From the NCBI RefSeq assembly GCF_054482595.1, contig NZ_CM137008.1: DNA of 64,000 bases; one strand, 5' to 3'. This document shows positions 6,001-9,000 of this stretch, piece after piece (position 1 is the first letter of the stretch; every line of letters begins with the position of its first letter). The position numbers are program-made.

Positions 6001-9000
6001 GTTGGCAAAATCGAAAAAAATAAACGGCGCTATCCGTGGGCGCAATTCGTTATTGACGGCAATGGACAGGGACGCGTTGCCTGGCGCTTGCCGGAGCAGA
6101 GTTCAACCATTCTGGTGCTGAATAAAGCTGGGCAAATTCAGTGGGCAAAGGACGGCAGCCTGACGCCGGAAGAGGTAGATCAGGTCATTGCGCTGGCGCA
6201 GAAACTGATCAATGAATAAAAAACTCAAAGGATTGAGGGCGTTAGTGAGATGAAGCTGGTTGAACACTACATCATGCGTGGTACGCGCCGTCTGGTGCTG
6301 ATTATCGTCGGTTTTCTGATCTTTATTTTCGCCAGCTACTCCGCACAGCGTTATCTGACCGAAGCGGCAAATGGGACATTAGCACTTGATGTTGTGCTGG
6401 ATATCGTTTTCTACAAAGTGCTGATTGCACTGGAGATGTTGTTACCTGTTGGACTGTATGTGTCAGTTGGCGTGACGCTAGGGCAGATGTATACCGACTC
6501 GGAAATTACCGCTATCTCTGCGGCGGGGGGCAGTCCGGGACGCTTGTACAAAGCCGTTCTTTATCTGGCGATACCGCTAAGTATTTTTGTCACCCTTCTG
6601 TCGATGTATGGTCGTCCGTGGGCTTATGCGCAGATTTATCAACTGGAGCAGCAGTCGCAGTCGGAGCTGGATGTTCGCCAGTTGCGGGCAAAGAAATTTA
6701 ACACTAACGATAACGGACGAATGATCCTTTCGCAGACGGTTGATCAGGATAATAATCGCCTGACTGACGCGCTGATTTATACTTCTACTGCCAATCGAAC
6801 CCGCATTTTCCGCGCCCGTTCGGTTGATGTGGTTGACCCATCACCCGAGAAACCGACCGTTATGTTGCACAACGGCACTGCCTATCTTCTCGATCATCAG
6901 GGTCGTGACGACAACGAACAGATCTACCGTAATCTGCAATTACATCTGAATCCGCTGGATCAAAGCCCTAACGTCAAACGCAAAGCAAAATCGGTCACGG
7001 AGCTGGCGCGCTCCGCCTTTCCTGCCGATCATGCCGAACTGCAATGGCGACAAAGCCGTGGCCTGACCGCATTGTTGATGGCGCTGCTGGCCATTTCATT
7101 AAGTCGGGTAAAACCGCGGCAGGGGCGATTTTCAACGTTATTGCCACTGACGTTGCTGTTTATTGCCATTTTTTATGGCGGCGACGTCTGCCGTACGCTG
7201 GTGGCTAACGGCGCGATTCCTCTCATTCCTGGTTTGTGGTTAGTGCCCGGACTCATGCTAATGGGCCTGCTGATGCTGGTTGCACGCGACTTCACTTTGC
7301 TGCAGAAATTTTCCCGATGAATGTTTTCAGTCGCTATTTAATCCGTCATCTCTTTCTCGGTTTTGCCGCCGCCGCAGGGTTATTGCTGCCGCTTTTTACT
7401 ACCTTCAACCTGATTAACGAACTGGATGATGTCAGCCCGGGCGGTTATCGCTGGACTCAGGCGGTGCTGGTGGTGCTGATGACCTTACCGCGTACACTGG
7501 TCGAACTTTCGCCGTTTATCGCCTTATTGGGAGGGATTGTTGGCCTGGGGCAGTTATCGAAAAACAGTGAGCTTACCGCCATTCGCAGCACGGGGTTTTC
7601 TATCTTCCGTATTGCACTGGTGGCGCTGGTTGCCGGGATATTGTGGACTGTTTCGTTAGGCGCGATAGATGAGTGGGTGGCGTCGCCATTGCAGCAACAG
7701 GCGCTGCAAATCAAATCGACCGCCACCGCGTTAGGGGAGGACGATGACATTACCGGCAATATGCTGTGGGCCAGGCGCGGCAATGAATTTGTGACGGTGA
7801 AATCGCTGAATGAACAGGGCCAGCCGGTGGGCGTGGAGATTTTTCATTATCGTGACGATCTCTCGCTCGAATCCTACATTTATGCACGCAGTGCCACCAT
7901 TGAAGACGACAAAACGTGGATCCTGCATGGTGTGAATCATAAAAAATGGCTGAATGGCAAAGAAACGCTGGAAACATTAGATAATCTTGCCTGGCAATCG
8001 GCCTTCACCAGTATGGATCTTGAAGAGTTATCAATGCCGGGCAATACTTTTTCTGTCCGTCAGCTTAATCATTACATCCATTATTTGCAGGAAACCGGGC
8101 AACCCAGCAGCGAATACCGCCTTGCACTGTGGGAAAAACTGGGGCAACCCATCCTGACCCTGGCGATGATTTTGCTGGCTGTGCCGTTTACCTTTAGCGC
8201 CCCGCGCTCGCCAGGGATGGGTAGCCGTCTCGCTGTAGGCGTCATCGTTGGCTTACTCACCTGGATCAGCTATCAAATCATGGTCAATCTGGGTTTGCTA
8301 TTTGCGTTGAGCGCACCTGTTTTCGCGCTCGGTTTACCGGTAGCGTTTGTGTTGATGGCGTTGAGCCTGGTGTATTGGTATGACAGACAATATTAAACCC
8401 GCCGTGGCGCAACACCACAGCGGGCTCACATTACTGCTTCAGAGTAGCAAATGCTTGAATGATGGCATCGATTTGCTCACGACTGTGGGCAGCGTTTACG
8501 CTACAGCGCAGCAGCGTGATGCCTGCAGGCGCGGCAGGTGGCAGGATAAGATTCACATAAACGCCCAGCGAAATAAGCTCGCGCCAGATGCGTAAACCGT
8601 CCTCTTTCGAACCGATTATTACCGGCACTACCGGGCTAATATGTGAACTTAACTCATAACCCAGTTTTTGCAGACCGTCATACAGATGGTTGGCATTATC
8701 CATCAGCTTTTGCCGCAGCTCTGGTTGTGTGGCAATAGTTCTTAACGACGAGCGCACGGTCGCAATGCAGGACGGAGAAGGAGAGGCGGTAAAAATATAC
8801 GGGCGGCTGCCGTAGCGCAGCACTTCCATCGCTTCCGAACCGACAGCAAAACCGCCAATCGAGGCCAGACTTTTACTGAAGGTGCCAACGATAATATCCA
8901 CATCATCTTCAACGCCAACGGCTTCAGCCAGTCCGCGCCCCGTTGCGCCTAACACGCCAAACGAATGCGCTTCATCGACAATCAAATAACCACCGAGACG

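What the first reader, a model, noticed from the sequence alone, without database searches (positions are those of the whole stretch)
8397..8430. Possible shared bidirectional terminator between the two convergent lipid-locus operons
The 35-bp gap between the stop of the second LptG-like gene and the stop of the Spt-like gene contains an imperfect inverted repeat (cccgccgtgg / ccacagcggg, one mismatch). It could act as a terminator for both operons or allow read-through antisense regulation.
Basis: seen in the sequence. Interest (0 to 1): 0.2.

Follow-up and report, generated by a model that had tools for sequence, protein, structure and literature searches.

The report
Shared hairpin terminator between convergent operons
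The 34-base gap between two converging E. coli lipid operons holds a conserved RNA hairpin that most likely ends transcription of the sphingolipid-synthesis (spt) operon and probably also blocks the opposing operon, an ordinary kind of bacterial terminator that had not been described at this spot.

Summary
The gap is 8397-8430 (34 nt, not 35). It holds the inverted repeat cccgccgtgg/ccacagcggg with one mismatch.

The window is E. coli. The locus is the known aasR-epi-acpR-spt sphingolipid operon, converging on a YghQ/YtfJ/LptF-like/LptG-like operon. K-12 has lost it to an IS5-associated deletion.

The hairpin is strongly asymmetric:
- As spt-sense (minus strand) RNA it folds at -24 to -28 kcal/mol. 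That is the most stable 40-nt structure on that strand in the 64-kb window. It is followed by UUUAAUAUUGU.
- As plus-strand RNA it folds at -15.7 kcal/mol (top 2%) and has no U tract.

Most E. coli strains carry a perfect stem. Three stem pairs show compensatory double changes across Escherichia. One-sided changes mostly keep G-U pairing on the spt-sense RNA. Other genera with the same convergent layout have unrelated hairpins in the same gap. The element is single-copy, so it is not a REP.

Best reading: it is an intrinsic terminator and 3'-end protector for the spt operon. For the LptFG-like operon it is at most a non-canonical pause or collision-type barrier.

The "bidirectional" claim is only partly supported. 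No 3'-end data exist, because all E. coli Term-seq work found here used K-12. Ordinary; low interest.

The parts
2670..8396 (+). Plus-strand operon converging on the hairpin. It encodes a hypothetical protein (YghR-like), a YghQ-like Polysacc_synt flippase-type protein, another hypothetical protein, a YtfJ-family protein, an LptF-like protein (6250-7320) and an LptG-like protein (7317-8396).
   Evidence: ORFs, Pfam, PGAP annotation of the identical XH990 sequence. That these genes form one operon is inferred from their tight spacing; it was not shown.
8394..8396 (+). Stop codon (TAA) of the LptG-like gene, 1 nt before the core stem. It also forms part of the U-rich tail (UUA) of the minus-strand terminator.
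8398..8424 (+). Hairpin as read on the + strand. The arms are 8398-8407 and 8415-8424 and the loop is 8408-8414. There is a C8403-A8419 mismatch in this window's allele. Folding energy is -15.7 kcal/mol. The tail CUCACAUUACUG is not U-rich.
8397..8425 (-). The same hairpin as spt-sense RNA. It has a 13-pair stem (5' arm 8425-8413, loop 8412-8410, 3' arm 8409-8397) including U-G wobbles. The stem can extend to 16 pairs (8428-8394). Folding energy is -24.3 to -27.7 kcal/mol.
   Evidence: covariation.
8385..8396 (-). U-rich tail of the minus-strand terminator. With U8397 it reads UUUAAUAUUGUCU. It overlaps the last codons of the LptG-like gene on the other strand.
8419..8419 (.). Polymorphic stem position. 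It is A in the window's haplotype (670 of 4112 genomes share the exact 45-nt haplotype) and G in the majority, which gives a perfect stem. Its partner, 8403, is C in most strains and T in strain E500002 and contig L090, a compensatory U-A pair.
8431..8433 (-). Stop codon of spt, 6 nt upstream of the core stem and 2 nt upstream of the extended stem.
8431..12482 (-). Minus-strand sphingolipid operon: fatty acyl-AMP ligase (aasR), epimerase/reductase-like gene (epi), specialised ACP (acpR) and serine palmitoyltransferase (spt).
   Evidence: Pfam, annotation. The BL21(DE3) orthologues ECD_02851-02854 were characterised biochemically in PMC9386255.

Best explanation
The inverted repeat encodes an RNA hairpin whose main job is to end and protect the transcript of the aasR-epi-acpR-spt sphingolipid operon on the minus strand. 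RNA polymerase leaving spt transcribes a 13-16 bp G+C-rich stem followed by UUUAAUAUUGU. The hairpin forms in the exit channel and the weak rU-dA hybrid lets the transcript go (intrinsic termination). The same hairpin then shields the mRNA 3' end from 3'-exonucleases.

The LptG-like stop codon abuts the other foot of the stem, so the same DNA also gives the plus-strand transcript a hairpin. This one is weaker and lacks a U tract. It is probably not a self-sufficient terminator. At most it acts as a pause site or barrier, stopping polymerase together with head-on collisions, or as a 3'-end stabiliser after Rho-dependent termination further downstream.

Shown here: the sequence, the folding energies, the strand asymmetry, conservation with compensatory changes, and positional conservation of unrelated hairpins in other genera. 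Inferred: actual termination, its efficiency and direction, and that both operons are transcribed.
For: (1) Stability and asymmetry. The spt-sense RNA folds at -24.3 kcal/mol (z = -4.6) and the + strand RNA at -15.7 (z = -2.7). The site ranks first of 15,990 windows on the - strand and in the top 2.2% on the + strand.

(2) The terminator scan reports the site only on the - strand, with the most pairs of all 24 hits. Tail U-weight is 3.03 on the - strand and 0.69 on the + strand.

(3) Structure is conserved rather than sequence. Across 16 Escherichia sequences (11 distinct), 96.6% of cells are paired. Three pairs changed on both sides (C-G to U-A twice, G-C to A-U once). None of 500 shuffles reached the observed values, and slid controls were 37-53% paired.

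(4) In 61 metagenomic E. coli contigs there are 12 haplotypes. In all 12 the spt-sense fold is more stable, by 4.7-14 kcal/mol. The common one-sided variants are C-to-U changes that stay paired as U-G on spt-sense RNA but become A-C mismatches on the other strand.

(5) The same convergent LptFG-like/spt layout occurs in Hafnia, three Pseudocitrobacter and two Citrobacter species. Each has a strong hairpin of unrelated sequence in the 44-90 nt gap. Where spt has other neighbours (Mangrovibacter, Pantoea, Pluralibacter, Rosenbergiella, Serratia), a hairpin still follows the spt stop directly, often with a clear U tract.

(6) The element is single-copy per genome, so it is not a dispersed repeat.

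(7) Hairpins between convergent E. coli genes are an established terminator class (bioRxiv 10.1101/2022.10.23.513370). Six of seven convergent junctions in this chromosomal neighbourhood have one.
Against: No transcript 3'-end data exist for this site. Every E. coli Term-seq/SEnd-seq study found used K-12, which lacks the locus.

The minus-strand U tract is interrupted. Only 3 consecutive U follow the stem, and the extended stem can pair with them.

Both stop codons lie very close to the stem, 1 nt on the + strand and 6 nt on the - strand. A terminator placed a few bp after a stop codon was almost fully repressed by the trailing ribosome in vivo (PMC4824070). Efficiency may therefore be low or depend on translation.

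The excess of spt-sense-preserving one-sided changes rests on about 4 events against 1 and is not statistically significant.

The shuffle control does not correct for relatedness among the sequences.
Confidence: 0.72

Rival explanations
1. It is a true bidirectional terminator. A single hairpin element defines the 3' ends of both operons. It does this either as two overlapping intrinsic terminators or through the hairpin-pause plus head-on/co-directional RNA polymerase collision mechanism described for E. coli convergent gene pairs.
For: The hairpin fills the gap between the two stop codons. The majority E. coli allele is a perfect 10-bp stem that folds at about -22 kcal/mol on the + strand as well. 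In Pseudocitrobacter the orthologous gap has a hairpin about equally stable on both strands and with no U tract on either side. That matches the published statement that these elements 'do not resemble intrinsic terminators'. No other terminator-like site lies downstream of the + operon until about 10620.
Against: There is no U tract on the + strand (3 U in 8, weight 0.69). Natural variants repeatedly weaken the + strand hairpin to between -11 and -16 kcal/mol while sparing the - strand, which suggests little selection on the + strand structure. The collision mechanism needs both operons to be actively transcribed, which is unknown. The + strand stem starts 1 nt after the stop codon, where a terminating ribosome would cover the 5' arm.
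Confidence: 0.35
2. The hairpin is mainly a 3'-end stabiliser rather than a terminator. Transcription of one or both operons ends further downstream through Rho, acting on the untranslated antisense RNA. 3'-exonucleases then trim the transcript back to the stable hairpin, which sets mRNA half-life.
For: The stems are very stable. The U tracts are imperfect or absent. The plus-strand RNA downstream has C-rich, G-poor stretches (C/G 1.5-1.9 at 8825-9124), and the first 100 nt downstream on the minus strand has C/G 1.6. Dual terminator/stabiliser roles of 3' hairpins in E. coli are reported for REP elements (bioRxiv 10.64898/2026.03.23.713779). Trimming of Rho-terminated transcripts back to hairpins is established knowledge recalled from memory (Dar and Sorek 2018) and was not checked here.
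Against: The minus-strand element meets the usual sequence criteria for an intrinsic terminator well enough that the consensus scan reports it. The C/G ratios are only suggestive of rut sites. The two roles are not mutually exclusive, so this overlaps with the best explanation.
Confidence: 0.25
3. It is a DNA-level element, not an RNA element. It could be a palindromic protein-binding site, a cruciform, or a recombination scar marking the joint between two horizontally acquired gene blocks.
For: It is a G+C-rich palindrome at the junction of two accessory operons. The locus is absent from 23% of complete E. coli genomes and deleted in K-12.
Against: Frequent alleles break DNA symmetry while keeping RNA G-U pairs; the U-G alleles make up about 20% of the metagenomic contigs. 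Compensatory double changes preserve pairing rather than sequence. Other genera carry unrelated hairpins at the same site. The K-12 deletion end-points lie at IS5 in yghQ and yghO, not at the hairpin. The element is not repeated elsewhere.
Confidence: 0.03

Closest known systems
Rho-independent (intrinsic) terminators of E. coli
   Same: It has a G+C-rich stem (13-16 pairs on the spt-sense strand) with a short loop, lies directly after the last stop codon of an operon, and is followed by a U-rich stretch. It is detected by a consensus terminator scan.
   Different: The U tract is interrupted (UUUAAUAUUGU). The stem begins only 6 nt after the stop codon. On the opposite strand there is no U tract at all.
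Bidirectional terminators between convergent E. coli genes (Ju et al. 2019, as cited in Wang et al., bioRxiv 10.1101/2022.10.23.513370)
   Same: One hairpin-encoding element sits in a short gap between convergent genes. On at least one strand it does not look like an intrinsic terminator.
   Different: Overlapping 3' ends, independence from Rho and dependence on convergent transcription have not been measured here. Sequence variation suggests that only one strand's structure is under selection.
REP/BIME extragenic palindromes acting as 3'-UTR terminator-stabilisers
   Same: It is a stable extragenic palindrome between convergent genes and could both limit read-through and protect the 3' end.
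   Different: It is single-copy and has no resemblance to the REP consensus. Genuine REPs in the neighbouring convergent gaps (yggM/hemW, yggR/ruvX) look different (GCCGGATG...CATCCGGC).

Membership tests
Intrinsic (Rho-independent) terminator, minus strand / spt operon | Stable G+C-rich stem-loop with a short loop | tested here: met
   The stem has 13-16 pairs with a 3-nt loop and folds at -24.3 to -27.7 kcal/mol. It ranks first of 15,990 windows.
Intrinsic (Rho-independent) terminator, minus strand / spt operon | U-rich tract immediately 3' of the stem | tested here: inconclusive
   UUUAAUAU has 5 U in 8 but only 3 in a row. Tail weight is 3.03 against 5.21 for eight U. It passes the scan's rule of at least 5 T in 8.
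Intrinsic (Rho-independent) terminator, minus strand / spt operon | Position downstream of the last gene of a transcription unit | tested here: met
   The core stem starts 6 nt after the spt stop. A hairpin is found at the same position after spt in nearly all Enterobacterales loci examined.
Intrinsic (Rho-independent) terminator, minus strand / spt operon | Transcript 3' ends map to the U tract; factor-independent termination in vitro | not testable with these tools
   No 3'-end data exist for strains carrying the locus. The Term-seq studies found used K-12, which lacks it.
Intrinsic (Rho-independent) terminator, plus strand / LptFG-like operon | U-rich tract immediately 3' of the stem | tested here: not met
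   The tail is CUCACAUU, 3 U in 8, weight 0.69. The terminator scan does not report the + strand.
Intrinsic (Rho-independent) terminator, plus strand / LptFG-like operon | Stable G+C-rich stem-loop | tested here: met
   The stem has 9 pairs plus one C-A mismatch and folds at -15.7 kcal/mol (z = -2.7). The majority allele is a perfect 10-bp stem at about -22 kcal/mol.
Collision-type bidirectional terminator of convergent genes (Ju 2019 / Wang 2022) | Hairpin-encoding element located between convergent genes and transcribed from both sides | tested here: met
   The gap is 34 nt with one palindrome and a stop codon at each foot. That it is transcribed from both sides is inferred, not shown.
Collision-type bidirectional terminator of convergent genes (Ju 2019 / Wang 2022) | Overlapping 3' ends of both transcripts at the element; Rho-independent; efficiency dependent on opposing transcription | not testable with these tools
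   This needs SEnd-seq or Term-seq with and without bicyclomycin, plus promoter deletions, in a strain that carries the locus.
REP/BIME repeated extragenic palindromes | Many dispersed copies per genome sharing a consensus | tested here: not met
   There is one copy in the window at up to 3 mismatches. The median is 1 place per genome (maximum 2) in 4112 genomes at E <= 10.
Any curated Rfam RNA family | Covariance-model match | tested here: not met
   Only two chance-level matches, well away from the hairpin, in 7800-9000 at E <= 10.

The most novel reading that the evidence does not exclude
The common stem polymorphism may act as a strand-specific valve. The alleles are a perfect C-G pair, the window's C-A / U-G pair, and the compensated U-A pair. 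Alleles like the window's leave the spt-operon terminator intact but weaken the plus-strand hairpin by about 6 kcal/mol. The putative lipid-export (LptFG-like) operon could then read through as antisense RNA into spt and dampen sphingolipid synthesis by transcriptional interference. This would couple synthesis to export in a strain-dependent way.
Probability: 0.06. Interest if true: 0.45.

Novelty: new member of a known kind. Interest (0 to 1): 0.13.

Why it matters
The value is modest. The finding marks the 3' boundary of the E. coli sphingolipid (aasR-epi-acpR-spt) operon. This accessory pathway is present in about 77% of complete E. coli genomes but missing from K-12, so it is absent from all standard transcript-end maps. 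Anyone cloning, deleting or expressing these genes, or the adjacent LptFG-like putative transport operon, should know that the two share a 34-nt junction. A deletion ending at either stop codon would damage the other operon's terminator. It is also a clean natural example of compensatory evolution through G-U intermediates in a terminator stem. It does not change any concept.

Tried and rejected
- Rfam search of 7800-9000 at E <= 10 found nothing relevant.
- REP or other dispersed repeat was rejected: single copy in the window and per genome.
- A search for experimental 3'-end data found only K-12 datasets. K-12 lacks the locus. A locus-tag search (ECD_0285x) returned only the biochemical paper and a CRISPRi screen. 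The original Ju et al. 2019 paper is not held, so its content is cited only through Wang et al.
- An allele census over all 4112 genomes could not be done with the tools. I used 12 sampled genomes, 4 other Escherichia and 61 metagenome contigs instead.
- The test for strand bias of one-sided substitutions gave about 4 events against 1. That is too few for significance, so it is reported only as suggestive.
- In one search, the rows for speC/nupG, yggM/hemW and yggR/ruvX used XH990 coordinates on the window. The window diverges from XH990 after 40894, so those rows are invalid. They were redone on the XH990 locus.
- Strain PAR, with a 12-nt deletion of the 3' arm and the spt stop, is a single pseudogenised case and not informative.
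- A DNA-level palindrome or operator reading was rejected on the G-U and covariation pattern and on the unrelated hairpins in other genera.

Full report
**What is there.**
- The LptG-like ORF ends with TAA at 8394-8396. The spt ORF on the minus strand ends at 8433-8431. The gap is therefore 8397-8430, which is 34 nt.
- The gap contains cccgccgtgg (8398-8407) and ccacagcggg (8415-8424), complementary except for C8403 opposite A8419.
- The motif is unique in the window even with three mismatches allowed. It matches no Rfam family.

**Context.**
- The window is E. coli chromosome. It is identical to strain XH990 up to position 40894.
- The minus-strand genes are a fatty acyl-AMP ligase, an epimerase/reductase-like protein, an acyl carrier protein and serine palmitoyltransferase. 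Their BL21(DE3) orthologues (aasR, epi, acpR, spt; ECD_02851-02854) have been characterised as the 3-oxo-sphinganine/dihydroceramide pathway. The neighbouring yghO is the N-acyltransferase (PMC9386255).
- The plus-strand genes are a YghQ-like flippase-type protein, two hypothetical proteins, a YtfJ-family protein, and an LptF-like and an LptG-like permease.
- The junction is present in about 4100-4160 of 5426 complete E. coli genomes. It is absent from K-12, where IS5 lies between yghO and a truncated yghQ.

**Folding.**
- As plus-strand RNA the gap folds into a 9-pair stem with one internal mismatch and a 7-nt loop, at -15.7 kcal/mol (z = -2.7).
- As minus-strand (spt-sense) RNA the mismatch becomes a U-G pair and the loop closes to 3 nt. 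This gives 13 pairs at -24.3 kcal/mol (z = -4.6), or 16 pairs with the flanks.
- I slid a 40-nt window along all 64 kb. The site is the single most stable structure on the minus strand (-27.7; 15,990 windows). On the plus strand it is only in the top 2.2%.

**Tails.**
- After the stem the spt-sense RNA reads UUUAAUAUUGUC: 5 U in the first 8, and a decaying U-weight of 3.03 against 5.21 for eight U.
- The plus-strand RNA reads CUCACAUUACUG: 3 U in 8, weight 0.69.
- The consensus terminator scan reports the site only on the minus strand, with the longest stem of all 24 hits in 16 kb. The total number of hits in that scan is no higher than in shuffled sequence, so the scan alone proves little.

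**Variation within Escherichia.**
- I aligned twelve E. coli genomes sampled down the identity ranking and four other Escherichia lineages.
- Most carry G at 8419, which makes a perfect stem. The window's A allele is a minority: its exact 45-nt haplotype is in 670 of 4112 genomes.
- Strain E500002 has changed both partners (U-A).
- On the 16-pair model, 96.6% of cells are paired. Three pairs have changes on both sides (C-G to U-A at two pairs, G-C to A-U at one). No shuffle of 500 reached the observed values, and sliding the partner by 1-3 columns drops pairing to 37-53%. The shuffle control ignores relatedness, so this is good but not overwhelming evidence for selection on pairing.

**Variation in metagenomes.**
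- A scan anchored on the conserved coding flanks returned 61 E. coli contigs with 12 gap haplotypes.
- In all 12 the spt-sense fold is stronger than the opposite-strand fold, by 4.7-14 kcal/mol.
- The recurrent one-sided variants are C-to-U changes in the spt-sense 5' arm. They remain U-G paired on that strand (-25 to -28 kcal/mol) but become A-C mismatches on the other strand (-11 to -16 kcal/mol).
- Counted as events, this is roughly four against one (Escherichia sp. E1V33 goes the other way). That is suggestive only.
- Two further wobble pairs, near the loop and at the stem foot, pair only on the spt-sense strand in nearly all sequences.

**Other genera.**
- A scan of one genome per species with the Spt protein gave 33 proteobacterial loci.
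- The convergent LptFG-like/spt arrangement recurs in Hafnia paralvei, three Pseudocitrobacter species, Citrobacter amalonaticus and C. youngae.
- Each 44-90 nt gap holds a strong hairpin (-18 to -36 kcal/mol for the gap plus its short flanks) whose sequence is unrelated to the Escherichia one.
- Where spt has different neighbours (Mangrovibacter, Pantoea, Pluralibacter, Rosenbergiella, Serratia), a hairpin still follows the spt stop immediately, often with a clear U tract or an A-tract/U-tract pair.
- Turnover of sequence with retention of a hairpin at a fixed position is what terminators do. It ties the element to spt rather than to the LptG-like gene.

**How ordinary is it?**
- In this chromosomal neighbourhood six of seven convergent junctions carry a strong hairpin. 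These are pitB/yghT, this one, yghD/tRNA-Phe, speC/nupG (a textbook A-tract/U-tract bidirectional terminator), and two REPs.
- Only yghO/glcC, with a 6-nt gap, has none.
- Hairpin elements between convergent E. coli genes are a described terminator class. They are said not to resemble intrinsic terminators and to work by pausing polymerases so that head-on and trailing collisions release them (bioRxiv 10.1101/2022.10.23.513370).

**Caveats.**
- Both stems start very close to a stop codon, 1 nt on the plus strand and 6 nt on the minus strand. In a reporter system a terminator a few bp after a stop codon was almost fully repressed by the trailing ribosome, and full activity needed about 30 nt (PMC4824070). 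Efficiency here may be reduced or may depend on translation.
- No 3'-end data exist for this site, because the E. coli datasets found are from K-12.
- Rho could end any read-through on either strand. There are C-rich, G-poor stretches downstream, and the hairpin might then serve mainly as an exonuclease block.

**Verdict.**
- The element is a genuine, selected RNA hairpin. It is most likely the intrinsic terminator and 3'-end protector of the sphingolipid operon.
- Its role for the opposing operon is plausible but unsupported beyond geometry.
- It is a new, undescribed instance of a well-known kind of element, and of low general interest.

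Noticed in passing
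window 40895-64000: The window stops matching strain XH990 exactly at the 3' end of tRNA-Phe (pheV in XH990), and no tRNA is found in 40000-64000. The remaining 23 kb carries island-type genes: DUF4942, DUF932, an Ag43/AIDA-type autotransporter (46760-49681, minus strand), a YeeP-like GTPase and an IS3-family integrase (58410-59315, minus strand). This looks like a pheV-associated genomic island.
   Followed up: partly
window 3474-12879 versus K-12 (L130 4147-5341): K-12 MG1655 lacks the whole region from mid-yghQ to the 5' part of yghO. An IS5 (insH9) sits at the joint, so this is an IS5-associated deletion of the sphingolipid and LptFG-like genes. Standard K-12 transcript maps are therefore blind to this locus.
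   Followed up: partly
window 1012-1058: The pitB/yghT convergent gap has its own shared hairpin (1019-1049; -21.3 kcal/mol on the + strand and -19.4 on the - strand). A U-rich tail follows only on the pitB side. This is a second asymmetric 'shared' terminator in the same window, and this one is also present in K-12.
   Followed up: no
window 2670-8396: A second LptF/LptG-like permease pair, together with a YtfJ-family protein and a YghQ-like flippase-type protein, lies next to the sphingolipid biosynthesis genes. The linkage is conserved in Hafnia, Pseudocitrobacter, Citrobacter and Pluralibacter. It may be a transport system for the sphingolipid; its function appears uncharacterised.
   Followed up: no
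L133 2501-2535 (E. coli strain PAR, NZ_CP012379.1): A 12-nt deletion removes the 3' arm of the hairpin together with the spt stop codon, and spt is annotated as a pseudogene there. It may be a natural loss or an assembly error.
   Followed up: partly
window 28516-28960: Several very stable palindromes lie in the sslE-pppA intergenic region, for example GCCGGATAAGGCG...CGCATCCGGC at about 28521. They look like a cluster of REP elements.
   Followed up: no
window 46392-46442 and 46696-46746: Two canonical-looking minus-strand terminators (GGCCGCGTCTTCTCCGGGAGACGCGGCCTTTTC and GGCCCCGGTCATCATGACCGGGGCCTTTT) flank a small ORF just downstream of the Ag43-type autotransporter gene inside the island.
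   Followed up: no
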